64,000 nt of DNA, from contig JAWCQZ010000003.1 of NCBI GenBank assembly GCA_038869515.1, positions 126,884 to 190,883 on the forward strand, read 5' to 3'. Below the pieces are notes generated by a model. That model did no database searches and had not been told where the DNA came from. It worked only from the letters and a program-made list of their open reading frames with translations. The stretch's first letter is position 1. Every line of letters begins with the position of its first letter. Position numbers and translations under genes: made by a program. The stretch comes from Halobacteria archaeon. GTDB taxonomy: Archaea; Halobacteriota; Syntropharchaeia; JACQPP01. Of the stretch, positions 56,547 to 58,718 are shown in pieces.

Positions 56547-56951
56547 ATGGTCAACCGCGTCCGCAAGTTCCGGGGCCTCTCCACCCACGGCAAGGGCACC
56601 CACAAGAACCGGAGGGGCGGCGGCTCCCGGGGGGGCCGGGGGCGCTCGGGGGGCGACAAGCACCACTACCTCCTCTACGGCATCCACTGGGGCAAGCACG
56701 GCTTCACCCGGCCCAACACGAAGCGGGTCCGGGCGCTCTCGCTCCGGGACCTGGAGGAGATGGCCCACCGGTGGGCCGCGGAGGGGAGGGTCAAGAAGGA
56801 GGGGGACGCCCTGCTCCTCGACCTCGGCGCCCTCGGGGTCTCGAAGGTGGTCGGGGGCTGGACCCCCCGGACGAAACTGGTGGTCCGGGGGGGCTCCGTC
56901 ACCGGGGGCGCCAAGTCCGCAATCGAGGAAGCGGGCGGCAAAGTATCCTGA
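56547..56951 (+). CDS. rpl15p: 50S ribosomal protein uL15 (L15P/L27a family)
   Basis: 134 aa; Gly/Arg-rich N-terminus (…NRRGGGSRGGRGRSGG…), C-terminal …AKSAIEEAGGKV. Confidence 0.75.
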   Translation: MVNRVRKFRGLSTHGKGTHKNRRGGGSRGGRGRSGGDKHHYLLYGIHWGKHGFTRPNTKRVRALSLRDLEEMAHRWAAEGRVKKEGDALLLDLGALGVSKVVGGWTPRTKLVVRGGSVTGGAKSAIEEAGGKVS

Positions 56952-56971
56952 CGGGTTGCTACCCGCGGGGA

Positions 56972-57047
56972 CTTGCAAAATCGCGGCCGAGAGAAGCGAG
57001 GCCAGCGATTTTGCCCCGCCCCGAGAGAGCGCAGCGAGCGAGGGGCT
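56972..57047. repeat. Family-1 palindromic element (reverse orientation, 1.5 units)
   Basis: GCAAAATCGC (56975-56984) … GCGATTTTGC (57005-57014) followed by CCCGCCCCGAGAGAGCGCAGCGAGCGAGGGGCTG, the reverse complement of the core at 34380-34409. Confidence 0.55.
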
Positions 57048-57052
57048 GAGAA

Positions 57053-57292
57053 TTACCTGACTTCGACCTTCTCGACCGCTCGCTGGGCCTCGGCCTCCTC
57101 CATCCGCGCCAGTTCGTCCTCGATGGCGGTCTTCGCCGCCATGAGGAGGTCGCGCCGGACGGCCCGGAGGGGGGCCTTGACCTCCTCGGGGACGGCCCAG
57201 AAGAGGTCCACGGGGGGCACGACGCCCCGGACCGCTGCCCGGAGGTGGCCTGCGGCGTTGAGAAGGTGGTCCGCAACGTCTCGGGTGGCCAT
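57053..57292 (-). CDS. Hypothetical small helical protein downstream of the ArsA-like gene
   Basis: 79 aa from ATG 57292; good codon bias; the long track ORF 57053..58234 upstream of it is antisense to the ArsA-like gene. Confidence 0.4.
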   Translation of the reverse strand: MATRDVADHLLNAAGHLRAAVRGVVPPVDLFWAVPEEVKAPLRAVRRDLLMAAKTAIEDELARMEEAEAQRAVEKVEVR

Positions 57293-57327
57293 GGGGGCAA
57301 GGTCCCCCCTCCCCCTTTTGAACCTTG

Positions 57328-58182
57328 TCACTGCTTCGAGGGCGAGAGAGGGTCGCGGCCCCCGTAGAGCCGCTTCGCCAGGGCGGCGGGTCCCTCCGAG
57401 TCTAGGCCGGGGATGTGGACCCAGGGCACCGAGGGGAGCACGCTCTCCATCCCCTCCCGGAACTCCTTCGACAGCGGGGAGCCGACCGCGGCGGCGAAGT
57501 CGGGCCGGAGGCCCGCGACGCGGTCGAAGCCGGGGGGGAAGCAGCGGCCCGCGGGGACCACGACCCGCGCGGTGCACTCGCGGGACCTCAGCCGCTGGAA
57601 CGCCTGCCGGGCCCGGACCTGGGCGCGCTCGACTTCGTGGAGGACCTCCTCGTCCGGAAGGGGGAACTTCCCAAGGCCCCCGAGCATCAGTCCGAGCCTC
57701 AGGGGCGGCATGACGTAGCGCCGGACCGGCCAGTAGAAGCGGCGCATCCCCTCGTCGAAGTCCCCGAGGCCCCGGACCAGCCGCGCCGTGTCGCGGGGGG
57801 GAAGGTGGCAATCCACCACCGCCGCGTCGAAGCCCTTCATCTGGCCCAGTTGCATGAAGGCCGATGTCGCCTCGATGCCGAGGGAGTCGAGCATCTCCTC
57901 GGGCTTCACCTTGTTCCACGCGGCGAGGCGGTGGAGGTAGCGCCACCCCGCGGGCCAGTGCTTCCGGAGCTCCCCGAAGATGTCGGTCTGGGCGACCCGG
58001 AGGTTCTTTCCCACCTCCGAGGGCTCCCCGTTGAACTCTTCCTGGAAGTGCTCCTGGAACGCCCCGGGTCGAGTGGTGATGAGCAGGGTGTCGTGGCCCG
58101 CCGCCGCGCAGGCCCACGCGGTGGCGGAGGCGACGGCGGTCTTCTCGCGCTCGCCGTGGCCCGCCACGAGGAGGGTCCTCAC
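57328..58182 (-). CDS. ArsA/GET3/ParA-superfamily ATPase-like protein with degenerate P-loop
   Basis: 284 aa from GTG 58182 (MRTLLVAGHGEREKTAVASATAWACAAAGHDTLLITT…); P-loop position reads GHGEREKT instead of GKGGVGKT; track start 58278 is a TTG extension across a TATA-like element. Confidence 0.55.
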   Translation of the reverse strand: MRTLLVAGHGEREKTAVASATAWACAAAGHDTLLITTRPGAFQEHFQEEFNGEPSEVGKNLRVAQTDIFGELRKHWPAGWRYLHRLAAWNKVKPEEMLDSLGIEATSAFMQLGQMKGFDAAVVDCHLPPRDTARLVRGLGDFDEGMRRFYWPVRRYVMPPLRLGLMLGGLGKFPLPDEEVLHEVERAQVRARQAFQRLRSRECTARVVVPAGRCFPPGFDRVAGLRPDFAAAVGSPLSKEFREGMESVLPSVPWVHIPGLDSEGPAALAKRLYGGRDPLSPSKQ

Positions 58183-58313
58183 GGGGGGGTCCTTCCCGGG
58201 GTCCGGGGCGCGGCGGCCATCCGCGGGATTCCACCTCCCCCGTTTAAAAAGCGAGGGGGGCCGCGCGTGCCCCTCCAAACAAATATTTAAGAAGGCCCGC
58301 CCAACGTCGTTCC

Positions 58314-58718
58314 ATGGCCACCACCCTCTCGGAGCCCCTCGGTGCCCGGGAACGGGACGAGAACAAGAGGAAAATCCAGCAGGAGCTCGTCGTCATCGAG
58401 CAGGCCAAGAAGGCCGCCAAGGAGATGCGCCTCAAGAAGGAGCAGCTCGACGCCCTCGAAATCCAGGGCCGGCGCCTCGAGGACAGCCTGAAAATCGTGG
58501 AGACCGGGTACCCCCTGTTCATCGAGGTCCAGGACGAGCGCGCCCAGCGCATCGCCCTCTCCTTCTACACCAAGCCCCTCCCCCCGGAGGTCATCATCCG
58601 GCTCCGGGAGCTCCAGGGGAAGGAGGTCTTCACCGACTTCGAAATCATCGAGCGGAGTGGCGATACCTTCCTCCTCGGGCGCTACGGCGAGTCCCGCGCC
58701 CTCGTCGCCAAGTGGTAA
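58314..58718 (+). CDS. Hypothetical protein
   Basis: 134 aa; ATG about 25 bp after TATA-like AAATATTTAAG; strong codon bias; no family recognised. Confidence 0.5.
   Translation: MATTLSEPLGARERDENKRKIQQELVVIEQAKKAAKEMRLKKEQLDALEIQGRRLEDSLKIVETGYPLFIEVQDERAQRIALSFYTKPLPPEVIIRLRELQGKEVFTDFEIIERSGDTFLLGRYGESRALVAKW

What the first reader, a model, noticed from the sequence alone, without database searches (positions are those of the whole stretch)
57053..58718. ArsA/ParA-like ATPase with a degenerate P-loop, a small helical partner and a divergently transcribed unknown gene
The ATPase begins directly with the P-loop position but reads GHGEREKT instead of the deviant Walker A GKGGVGKT, which may mean loss or alteration of nucleotide binding. 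A 79-aa helical protein follows 35 bp downstream, and a 134-aa unknown protein is transcribed divergently from a shared A/T-rich promoter region. The module is compact and uncharacterised.
Basis: partly seen in the sequence, partly recalled or inferred. Interest (0 to 1): 0.5.

Follow-up and report, generated by a model that had tools for sequence, protein, structure and literature searches.

The report
Get3/ArsA-fold protein with dead ATP site
An uncultured archaeon keeps, under selection, a copy of the Get3/ArsA chaperone-type ATPase in which every ATP-binding motif has been rewritten, so it probably works without ATP; this is a rare lineage-specific variant of a well-known protein family rather than a new kind of system.

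Summary
A 284-aa gene (57328-58182, minus strand, GTG start) encodes a Get3/ArsA-family protein: Pfam ArsA_ATPase 4e-14, and the predicted fold matches archaeal Get3 best. Its P-loop reads GHGEREKT.

This is not an error or a wrong start. Six homologues (63-83% identical, independent assemblies) all carry G[EH]GE[RA][EA]K[TS]. No canonical Walker A exists in any other frame.

Three further motifs are also lost:
- the switch I catalytic Asp (TTRPG)
- the switch II signature (DCHLPPRDT)
- the A-loop Asn

The gene is nevertheless under purifying selection (dN/dS 0.23-0.31). I read it as a pseudo-ATPase: a Get3-fold binding or scaffold protein that acts without ATP hydrolysis.

It forms an operon with a highly conserved 79-aa helical protein, present in all 8 loci that reach downstream. 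The family is tiny, a single 50%-identity cluster among 1.8 billion representatives. It is sister to two other short archaeal paralogues with milder P-loop defects, and one of these sits in the same genome as a family member.

The link to the divergent 134-aa gene rests only on synteny among close relatives. That protein has no informative fold match.

Verdict: a new variant of a known kind, of moderate to low interest.

The parts
57328..58182 (-). Get3/ArsA-fold pseudo-ATPase gene. 284 aa, GTG start at 58182-58180, stop codon at 57328-57330.
   Evidence: ORF. Pfam ArsA_ATPase E=4e-14, 53 bits against a cut-off of 24.3. Identical NCBI and Logan protein P0001. AlphaFold model pLDDT 84, pTM 0.82. 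Best PDB matches are archaeal Get3 3ug7 and 3zq6, E about 1e-12, TM 0.64. dN/dS 0.23-0.31.
58138..58161 (-). Remnant of the deviant Walker A / P-loop: G8-H-G-E-R-E-K-T15, where the canonical motif is GKGGVGKT.
   Evidence: Read directly. Aligned to GKGGVGKT of TRC40 and ArsA1. The family consensus is G[EH]GE[RA][EA]K[TS], with G8, G10, E11 and K14 invariant. The model starts helix 1 at residue 11.
58063..58077 (-). Switch I remnant T36-T-R-P-G40. The catalytic Asp of canonical STD(P/A)AHS is replaced by an invariant Arg, and there is a one-residue deletion.
   Evidence: The role of the switch I Asp is taken from PMC10248533.
57787..57813 (-). Switch II / Walker B region D124-C-H-L-P-P-R-D-T132. 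The Walker B Asp is kept, while canonical DCAPT(A/G)ET is replaced. The PRD triplet is shared with the short paralogues.
   Evidence: motif table; P129, R130 and D131 invariant across the short clade.
57053..57292 (-). It lies 35 bp after the ATPase stop. A precomputed weak Pfam hit to PF27253 (AF_1253) exists on relatives.
   Evidence: It is 88-92% identical across the aligned relatives, and the most divergent copy (L010) also matches the family profile strongly. dN/dS 0.10-0.33. It sits directly downstream of the ATPase in the window and in L001-L005, L010 and L011. The PF27253 hit is on the L010 copy and faint on the L011 copy.
58314..58718 (+). Divergently transcribed 134-aa gene of unknown function. 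The model shows an N-terminal helical hairpin (residues 11-64) and a small beta-alpha-beta-beta-beta domain. Its association with the ATPase is unproven.
58243..58250 (-). TATA-like box (TTTTTAAA on the minus strand) for the ATPase operon, about 26 nt upstream of the uORF ATG.
   Evidence: Read. TTTTTAA is conserved in four of the five aligned upstream regions and reads CTTTTAA in L002; it is also present in L011. Function is inferred from archaeal promoter geometry (my own knowledge).
58179..58220 (-). Conserved 13-codon upstream ORF. Its ATG is at 58220-58218, and its TGA (58181-58179) overlaps the ATPase GTG start as GTGA.
   Evidence: The ATG is invariant, and the frame is kept across a 3-nt indel in 6 of 7 loci. 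It is absent as a closed ORF in L010, where the ATPase starts with ATG.
58281..58290 (+). TATA-like box (AAATATTTAA) about 28 nt upstream of the ATG of the 134-aa gene. This geometry implies a leaderless transcript.
   Evidence: Conserved in L001, L004, L005, L010 and L011. Function is inferred.
56966..57023 (.). Hairpin with 19-nt arms and T/A runs on both strands, between the convergent 79-aa and uL15 genes. It is a probable bidirectional transcript end.
   Evidence: I1, 79% complementary.

Best explanation
The gene encodes a lineage-specific pseudo-ATPase of the Get3/ArsA (SIMIBI) family.

What is kept: the Get3 fold, that is, the Rossmann-like core plus a full-length helical subdomain with a hydrophobic Gly/Leu/Met-rich insert.

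What is changed: every element that canonical members use to bind and hydrolyse ATP.
- The P-loop glycines that form the phosphate-binding anion hole are replaced by Glu.
- The intradimeric 'signature' Lys is His or Glu.
- The switch I catalytic Asp is Arg.
- The switch II signature is rewritten.
- The A-loop Asn is gone.

Inferred mechanism: the protein does not cycle with ATP. The new acidic and basic residues (E11, E13, R38, next to the retained K14 and D124) probably fill and lock the former nucleotide pocket. The protein would then act as a constitutive, nucleotide-independent binding protein. It could be a holdase or adaptor for hydrophobic or helical clients, or a non-catalytic scaffold subunit.

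Expression: it is made as the first gene of a two-gene operon with a highly conserved 79-aa acidic protein, which is its most likely direct partner.

Shown: family membership by sequence and fold, motif loss, conservation of the altered motifs, purifying selection, conserved gene pairing within the lineage, and the narrow distribution.

Inferred: no ATP binding, the locked pocket, the chaperone or scaffold role, and physical interaction with the 79-aa protein.
For: Family and fold:
- Pfam ArsA_ATPase above its gathering score.
- hhalign probability 99.8% over 276 columns against canonical relatives.
- AlphaFold model pLDDT 84, whose best PDB matches are archaeal Get3, then Get3d, Get3, ArsA and BagAB.

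Motif loss:
- All four nucleotide motifs are altered, and identically so across six homologues.
- 142 of the 149 nearest relatives keep GKGG[VTA]GK[TS].
- The roles of the signature Lys, Walker Lys, switch I Asp and A-loop are as described in PMC10248533.
- The model shortens the P-loop to a two-residue turn, with helix 1 starting at residue 11.

Not a decaying gene:
- dN/dS 0.23-0.31, with about 100 invariant columns in the 7-sequence alignment.

Helical subdomain:
- It keeps the canonical length (135 against 137 residues), and the insert PPLRLGLMLGGLGKFPLP is nearly invariant.

Partner gene:
- The 79-aa gene lies 24-43 bp downstream in all 8 loci that extend that far and is 88-92% identical across the aligned relatives.

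Precedent:
- ATP-independent holdase activity is documented for Get3/TRC40 (PMC6593721; PMC3613179; bioRxiv 10.1101/2024.07.10.602939).
Against: - No biochemical data exist. Loss of nucleotide binding is inferred from motifs and from a model built on only 13 sequences.
- K14, T/S15 and the Walker B Asp D124 are retained and invariant. This could mean that some phosphate or metal ligand is still bound.
- The helical subdomain is less hydrophobic (0.42 against about 0.50) and much more basic than in canonical relatives (pI 8.9 against 5.2). That does not favour a classical tail-anchor groove.
- The pairing with the 79-aa gene is seen only in closely related genomes where the whole region is syntenic. 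It therefore proves co-transcription at best, not interaction.
- I could not model complexes or read the model coordinates.
Confidence: 0.55

Rival explanations
1. It is the non-catalytic half of a heterodimer. The protein pairs with the P-loop-bearing short paralogue (P0014/P0162/P0163 type, GSGGVGKS) encoded elsewhere in the genome. This would resemble the two unequal halves of ArsA or the BagA/BagB Get3-like heterodimer, with only one site binding nucleotide.
For: - The paralogue clade is the closest relative. The short clade is monophyletic in 100 of 100 NJ bootstraps, and both groups share the PRD switch II and the same ~285-300 aa architecture.
- Both types occur in the same MAG, CAZANW01 (L005 and L006).
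- Both occur in the same run, SRR22388343 (L001 and L007).
- Both occur in the same JGI sample, 3300045950 (L011 and L008).
- A Get3-like heterodimer structure exists: 6bs3, ranked 48.
Against: - The two genes are unlinked.
- No paralogue was returned from the window's own three NCBI MAGs or Logan assemblies, nor from three other samples that carry the family.
- The paralogue itself lacks the signature Lys, and the window protein offers His/Glu at that position. A heterodimer would therefore not rebuild a canonical composite site.
- Only one of the three co-occurrences is at genome level.
Confidence: 0.2
2. It is still a nucleotide-binding or hydrolysing enzyme with an unorthodox P-loop, because K14, T15 and D124 are kept.
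For: K14, T/S15 and D124 are invariant. Some Get3d proteins with a divergent switch I and a missing A-loop still hydrolyse ATP, and some replace the Walker Lys with Arg (PMC10248533).
Against: - In Get3d the P-loop itself is well conserved. Here the Gly before the Lys and the second Gly of GKGG are both Glu. My own knowledge of P-loop chemistry says this should block the phosphate both sterically and electrostatically.
- Four motifs are lost together.
- The model collapses the loop.
Confidence: 0.1
3. The former nucleotide pocket has been converted into a metal- or small-ligand-binding site, built from E11, E13, D124, C125 and H126. The protein would then act as a metallochaperone-like or sensor protein, as several SIMIBI relatives do.
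For: D124-C125-H126 and E11 are invariant in the family. H126, E11 and E13 are novelties relative to both the paralogues and canonical members. From my own knowledge, not tested here: SIMIBI metallochaperones such as HypB and UreG use Cys/His motifs near the switch regions.
Against: The idea rests purely on residue identity. I could not inspect the geometry. C125 is also present in canonical relatives (VVDCAPT), where it is not a known metal ligand. No metal-related genes are adjacent apart from an unrelated ABC transporter.
Confidence: 0.1
4. This is the first reader's reading: a three-gene functional module in which the ATPase, the 79-aa protein and the divergent 134-aa protein work together.
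For: The divergent arrangement is kept in every locus that extends upstream, including the most divergent one (L010, 63% ATPase identity). In L010 the two genes share a single A/T box 58 bp wide. All three genes are under purifying selection.
Against: All loci come from one narrow lineage with full regional synteny. The 134-aa protein has no homologues outside the lineage, no family hit and no fold match. The paralogues' neighbourhoods lack it.
Confidence: 0.15
5. It is a decaying, functionless remnant of an ArsA/Get3 gene.
For: All catalytic motifs are lost. dN/dS is somewhat higher than for the two neighbouring small genes.
Against: The ORF is intact in 7 independent assemblies at 63-83% identity. 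About 100 columns are invariant, and the replacement residues are themselves conserved. dN/dS is 0.23-0.31. The promoter and start context are conserved.
Confidence: 0.03

Closest known systems
Archaeal Get3 / TRC40 (M. jannaschii 3ug7, M. thermautotrophicus 3zq6)
   Same: Best structural matches (E about 1e-12, TM 0.64). Single-domain protein of about 300 aa. The strand-then-P-loop start is the same. N-terminal sequence similarity reaches E=1.6e-5 to 3zq6 with the family profile. A helical subdomain is present.
   Different: The deviant Walker A, switch I Asp, switch II signature and A-loop are all missing or rewritten. There is no CXXC motif. The score against TIGR00345 (GET3_arsA_TRC40) is 32.7 bits against a cut-off of 135. 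The protein is basic rather than acidic.
Bacterial ArsA-family ATPases with a C-terminal alpha-crystallin (HSP20) domain, the Get3d type (for example P0164-P0167; NosGet3d 8egk/3igf)
   Same: Closest canonical sequence relatives (E about 1e-15 and weaker; hhalign probability 99.8%). The C-terminal LYxGxDP motif and the PLP motif after the insert are shared. Get3d sets a precedent for a partly degenerate switch I and A-loop (PMC10248533).
   Different: The window protein lacks the alpha-crystallin domain and the ~14-residue helix after the A-loop. Get3d keeps the P-loop and is an active ATPase. Here the P-loop itself is destroyed.
Short archaeal paralogues P0013 (GKPGSGRT) and P0014/P0162/P0163 (GSGGVGKS)
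   Same: Sister groups in a 100%-supported short clade. Same length, shared PRD in switch II, shared WP, Y and RL motifs. They occur in the same genome or samples.
   Different: The paralogues keep the switch I Asp, the A-loop Asn and most of the P-loop. They share only 26-30% identity with the window protein. Their genomic contexts differ, and they have no 79-aa or 134-aa neighbours.
E. coli-type ArsA arsenite pump ATPase (1ii0; L. ferriphilum 9nbw)
   Same: Same Pfam family and fold.
   Different: ArsA is a tandem two-domain protein of about 570-590 aa encoded in ars operons. The window protein is a single domain. No arsB, acr3, arsD or arsR gene is among the nine neighbouring genes checked. 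TIGR04291 scores 14 bits against a cut-off of 650.
M. tuberculosis BagA/BagB Get3-like heterodimer (6bs3)
   Same: Get3 fold (rank 48). It sets a precedent for two different Get3-like subunits working as a pair (PMC10597346, names them as homologous ATP-binding proteins encoded in one operon).
   Different: NF053622 (BagA) scores 14 bits against a cut-off of 400. BagA and BagB are adjacent genes and are annotated as ATP-binding, whereas the putative partner here is unlinked and the window protein lacks the site.

Membership tests
Pfam PF02374 ArsA_ATPase (superfamily-level membership) | Sequence score above the curated gathering threshold | tested here: met
   53 bits against a cut-off of 24.3, E=4e-14, covering residues 34-241 of the 316-aa ORF.
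Get3/ArsA fold | SIMIBI nucleotide-binding-domain core plus a helical subdomain, closest in structure to Get3 | tested here: met
   Model pLDDT 84, pTM 0.82. All 50 best PDB hits listed by Foldseek are Get3, Get3d, ArsA or BagAB, with the best E=8e-13.
Get3/TRC40 (TIGR00345 GET3_arsA_TRC40) | Curated NCBIfam cut-off | tested here: not met
   32.7 bits against a cut-off of 135.
Get3/TRC40 and ArsA ATPases | Intradimeric (deviant) Walker A motif GKGGVGKT, including the signature Lys | tested here: not met
   The window reads GHGEREKT and the family reads G[EH]GE[RA][EA]K[TS].
Get3/TRC40 and ArsA ATPases | Switch I with the catalytic Asp (STDPAHS) | tested here: not met
   TTRPG-A: Asp is replaced by an invariant Arg, and there is a one-residue deletion.
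Get3/TRC40 and ArsA ATPases | Switch II / Walker B motif D(T/C)APTG(H/E)T | tested here: not met
   DCHL[PS]PRDT: only the Asp and the following Cys are kept.
Get3/TRC40 and ArsA ATPases | A-loop Asn that recognises adenine (xxNRVxP) | tested here: not met
   AAAVGSP aligns to VVANRVFP. The Asn is absent and the following helix is deleted.
Get3/TRC40 | Hydrophobic Get3 motif / TRC40-insert lining a client groove | tested here: inconclusive
   An insert of similar length (29 against 26 residues) is present and nearly invariant (PPLRLGLMLGGLGKFPLP). However, the subdomain is less hydrophobic (0.42 against about 0.50) and more basic. I could not inspect the groove geometry.
Get3/TRC40 | CXXC zinc-binding dimerisation motif | tested here: not met
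   No CXXC occurs in the sequence. Some archaeal Get3 proteins also lack it (PMC6593721).
ArsA arsenite pump ATPase | Tandem duplication (A1-A2, about 580 aa) and an ars operon context | tested here: not met
   Single domain of 284 aa. TIGR04291 scores 14.3 bits against 650. The nine neighbouring genes checked are uL15, ApbA, ABC transporter components, KARI, DAO, PTPS, MC1 and MptA.
Get3d | C-terminal alpha-crystallin domain | tested here: not met
   The protein ends at the LYGGRDP motif, at the point where relatives continue into the ~100-aa HSP20 domain.
ParA/MinD | Closest sequence or structure match to ParA/MinD, and a KGGxxGK[ST] signature | tested here: not met
   No ParA, MinD or CbiA Pfam hit at E<=1. 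None of the 50 PDB matches listed is ParA or MinD. The signature Lys is absent.
Pfam PF27253 (AF_1253), for the 79-aa protein | Profile match above threshold | not testable with these tools
   A precomputed hit is recorded on the L010 copy and a faint one on the L011 copy. The model is absent from the local Pfam copy. No paper mentions AF_1253.

The most novel reading that the evidence does not exclude
The dead ATPase and its 79-aa partner may form a previously undescribed, nucleotide-independent two-component system.

In this reading the Get3 fold is permanently locked by an internal charge network, or by a bound metal at E11/E13/D124/C125/H126. The partner protein would dock on it much as the Get1/WRB coiled-coil docks on nucleotide-free Get3. 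That would make the pair a minimal, soluble, ATP-free relative of the Get3-receptor pair.

The short archaeal clade would then record stepwise loss of ATPase chemistry, from GSGGVGKS and GKPGSGRT to GEGEREKT.
Probability: 0.1. Interest if true: 0.6.

Novelty: new variant of a known kind. Interest (0 to 1): 0.33.

Why it matters
Get3/ArsA proteins are textbook ATP-driven targeting factors and pumps, and their conformational cycle is thought to depend on the deviant Walker A site. A natural member that has erased that site yet stays under selection is a ready-made test of what the fold can do without nucleotide, for example holdase, adaptor or scaffold roles. Together with its two milder paralogues it offers a small natural series of progressive P-loop loss.

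The practical weight is limited. The family is confined to one uncultured archaeal lineage, as a single 50% cluster in 1.8 billion representatives, and nothing links it to a phenotype. It mainly warns annotators that 'ArsA-related P-loop ATPase' or 'arsenite-transporting ATPase' labels on these proteins are misleading.

Tried and rejected
- Wrong start or frameshift hiding a canonical Walker A: rejected. Six-frame scan, the conserved GTG/ATG start and identical protein calls in NCBI.
- ParA/MinD identity: rejected.
- Arsenic pump role: rejected on architecture and context.
- Anti-phage defence or viral origin: no PADLOC hit, and no meaningful PHROGs hit.
- The 79-aa or 134-aa protein as a split-off piece of the canonical ATPase, such as the missing helix or the alpha-crystallin domain: hhalign probabilities are 0.2% and 0.1%.
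- Homologues of the 79-aa protein near the paralogues: none found.
- Finding more or more distant loci failed. Two metagenome scans returned nothing, the GTDB scan returned one locus, and tblastn of the 79-aa protein against plasmids returned nothing.
- Literature on AF_1253 and on the BagAB structure paper: not in the searchable library.
- A first bootstrap tree script timed out and a second crashed. The third ran.
- PDB sequence search with the 79-aa profile: no hit at E<=10.
Full report
**1. What is there**

The window has about 70% G+C. Its genes are archaeal in character: MC1 chromatin protein, MptA-type GTP cyclohydrolase and uL15. Proteins identical to those of the finding are deposited from MAGs labelled 'Halobacteria archaeon'.

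- A 284-aa ArsA-like gene on the minus strand, 57328-58182, with a GTG start.
- A 79-aa gene 35 bp downstream, 57053-57292.
- A divergent 134-aa gene, 58314-58718.

The longest mechanical ORF for the ATPase is 316 aa from a TTG at 58278. It is not the gene. The extension is not conserved, that TTG lies upstream of the TATA-like box, and the NCBI call begins at the same GTG.

**2. The ATPase belongs to the Get3/ArsA family by sequence and fold**

- Pfam ArsA_ATPase matches at 4e-14, 53 bits against a gathering score of 24.3.
- A profile of the family aligns over 276 columns to canonical ~400-aa ArsA-family proteins with 99.8% probability.
- An AlphaFold model built on 13 sequences has pLDDT 84 and pTM 0.82.
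- Its best PDB matches are the archaeal Get3 structures 3ug7 and 3zq6 (E about 1e-12, TM 0.64). These are followed by NosGet3d, fungal and human Get3, ArsA and the mycobacterial BagAB heterodimer.
- No ParA/MinD match appears, so 'ArsA/Get3-like' is correct and 'ParA-like' is not.
- None of the curated NCBIfam equivalogs or subfamilies is reached. TIGR00345 scores 32.7 bits against 135, ArsA 14 against 650, BagA 14 against 400, and NosAFP 21.6 against 325.

**3. The degenerate P-loop is real, conserved, and only part of the story**

HMMER places GHGEREKT opposite GKGGVGKT of TRC40 and ArsA1. Six homologues from independent assemblies, 63-83% identical, read G[EH]GE[RA][EA]K[TS]. G8, G10, E11 and K14 are invariant. 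Among the 149 nearest representatives in a 1.8-billion-protein library, 142 have GKGG[VTA]GK[TS]. No other frame near the locus hides a Walker A that could belong to this gene.

The same alignment shows three further losses:

| Motif | Canonical relatives | Window family |
|---|---|---|
| Switch I | STDAAHS | TTRPG-A (catalytic Asp becomes an invariant Arg) |
| Switch II | DCAPTAET | DCHL[PS]PRDT |
| A-loop | VANRVFP | AAVVGSP (Asn lost, following ~14-residue helix deleted) |

The functional meaning of these motifs is taken from the Get3d structural paper (PMC10248533):
- The signature Lys stabilises the transition state across the dimer.
- The Walker Lys contacts the beta-phosphate.
- The switch I Asp positions the attacking water.
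- The A-loop recognises adenine.

That paper also shows that partial degeneracy, a divergent switch I with no A-loop, is compatible with ATPase activity when the P-loop is intact. Here the P-loop itself is broken. The glycine preceding the Lys and one glycine of the GG pair are glutamates. From general P-loop chemistry (my own knowledge), this should exclude the phosphates. The model accordingly starts helix 1 at residue 11 and leaves a two-residue turn.

**4. It is not a dying gene**

dN/dS against four relatives is 0.23-0.31. The 79-aa gene gives 0.10-0.33 and the 134-aa gene 0.15-0.18. About 100 columns of the 7-sequence alignment are invariant, including the replacement residues E11, R38 and H126 and the retained K14, D124 and C125. 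The helical subdomain keeps its canonical length of 135 against 137 residues. The insert PPLRLGLMLGGLGKFPLP is nearly invariant. The subdomain is, however, less hydrophobic (0.42 against about 0.50), and the protein is basic (pI 8.9 against 5.2).

**5. Distribution and relatives**

The family is a single 50%-identity cluster. The next hits drop from 5.5e-178 to 3e-29 (P0013, 289 aa, P-loop GKPGSGRT) and 1.6e-21 (P0014, 298 aa, GSGGVGKS), and then to the general ArsA cloud near 1e-15.

A neighbour-joining tree puts the window family, P0013 and the P0014 type in one 'short' clade, with 100 of 100 bootstraps against 22 canonical relatives. Long-branch attraction is a caveat. All three members deviate from the canonical Walker A in different ways, and they share a PRD switch II.

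The P0014 type co-occurs with the window family in three places:
- One MAG: CAZANW01 contigs 50 and 40, loci L005 and L006.
- One SRA run: L001 and L007.
- One JGI sample: L011 and L008.

It was not returned from the window's own assemblies. This keeps the heterodimer idea alive without establishing it. Neither protein could supply the other with a signature Lys.

**6. The neighbours**

The 79-aa protein is the most conserved of the three, 88-92% identical across the aligned relatives. It follows the ATPase by 24-43 bp in all 8 loci that reach that far. This is consistent with a bicistronic operon.

It has no hit in the local Pfam, NCBIfam, PADLOC, PHROGs or PDB sequence searches. The collection's precomputed annotations record a hit to the recent Pfam family PF27253 (AF_1253) on the L010 copy and a faint one on the L011 copy.

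Neither small protein resembles any part of canonical ArsA-family proteins. Neither occurs near the paralogues. Every locus with the trio comes from a close relative in which the whole region is syntenic. The 'module' is therefore supported only for the ATPase and 79-aa pair, and only as co-transcription.

**7. Expression signals (inferred)**

The intergenic region holds two TATA-like boxes. TTTTTAAA (58243-58250, minus strand) lies about 26 nt upstream of an invariant ATG at 58220. AAATATTTAA (58281-58290) lies about 28 nt upstream of the ATG of the 134-aa gene. Both geometries suggest leaderless transcripts.

The first ATG opens a 13-codon uORF whose TGA overlaps the ATPase GTG as GTGA. The ATG, the frame (kept across a 3-nt indel) and the overlap are conserved in 6 of 7 loci. 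In the most divergent locus, L010, the ~70-bp segment carrying the second box is missing. There the ATPase starts with ATG about 30 nt from the single A/T box, and the uORF is not closed.

A hairpin with 19-nt arms and flanking T runs separates the convergent 79-aa and uL15 genes.

**8. Interpretation**

The best-supported reading is a Get3/ArsA-fold pseudo-ATPase that works without an ATP cycle, probably together with the 79-aa protein. It would act as a constitutive binding, holdase or scaffold protein. ATP-independent chaperone activity is a documented side activity of Get3/TRC40 (PMC6593721; PMC3613179; bioRxiv 10.1101/2024.07.10.602939).

The rivals are:
- a non-catalytic subunit paired with the paralogue;
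- residual unorthodox nucleotide binding;
- a pocket converted to a metal or ligand site;
- a true three-gene module;
- gene decay (least likely).

**9. Verdict**

This is a new variant of a known kind: a Get3/ArsA-family member with the ATP site erased. It is narrowly distributed, and its cellular role is unknown. Interest is moderate to low.

Noticed in passing
window 58179-58220 (minus strand); also L001, L002, L004, L005, L011: A conserved 12-13-codon upstream ORF. Its ATG sits about 26 nt downstream of the TATA-like box, so it may be leaderless. Its TGA overlaps the ATPase GTG start as GTGA, which suggests termination-reinitiation coupling. The peptide sequence is not conserved; only the ATG, the frame and the overlap are.
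   Followed up: partly
L010 433-496 compared with window 58182-58314: The most divergent relative has a 58-bp intergenic region with a single A/T box (AATAAATATTT) between the two divergent genes, and an ATG start for the ATPase. The window and the other relatives carry an extra ~70 bp with a G+C-rich palindrome (58256-58273) and a second TATA-like box, and they use GTG.
   Followed up: partly
P0013 (L009 609-1478); P0014, P0162, P0163 (L008 275-1171, L006 5796-6689, L007 6001-6903): Two further short archaeal ArsA-like paralogue types have different, milder Walker A defects. One reads GKPGSGRT, with the Walker Lys replaced by Arg. The other reads GSGGVGKS, with the signature Lys replaced by Ser. 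Together with the window family they look like a series of progressive P-loop loss. The GSGGVGKS type is followed by a tRNA-Cys gene in two loci. P0013 follows an archaeal Nre gene.
   Followed up: partly
L010 1379-1618; L011 993-1232 (orthologues of window 57053-57292): Precomputed annotation assigns the 79-aa protein to the recent Pfam family PF27253 (AF_1253, named after an Archaeoglobus fulgidus ORF). If this holds, the small partner belongs to a wider archaeal family than the ATPase does. I could not check it, because the model is not in the local Pfam copy.
   Followed up: partly
P0131, P0145, P0091, P0048 (representative library hits): Other sporadic ArsA-family proteins also have broken Walker A motifs. 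P0131 and P0145 read GKGGAGTT and have also lost switch I, P0091 reads GKGVSKT, and P0048 reads GQGGVGKT. Pseudo-ATPases may therefore have arisen several times in this superfamily.
   Followed up: no
window 56966-57023: An inverted repeat with 19-nt arms (79% complementary, 20-nt loop) and A/T runs lies between the convergent uL15 and 79-aa genes. It is a probable bidirectional transcript terminator.
   Followed up: partly
window 56547-56951: The uL15 (Ribosomal_L27A family) gene stands alone between a ketopantoate-reductase-like gene and the 79-aa gene, with no other ribosomal protein gene among the neighbours checked. The arrangement is conserved in L001, L002, L003 and L011.
   Followed up: no
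window 57328-58182 and the paralogues: The source MAGs are labelled 'Halobacteria archaeon', yet the ATPase and its paralogues are basic (pI 8.5-9.8) and the 134-aa protein is near neutral (pI 6.4). This is not the acidic signature expected of salt-in haloarchaea, so the lineage is probably a non-halophilic relative.
   Followed up: no
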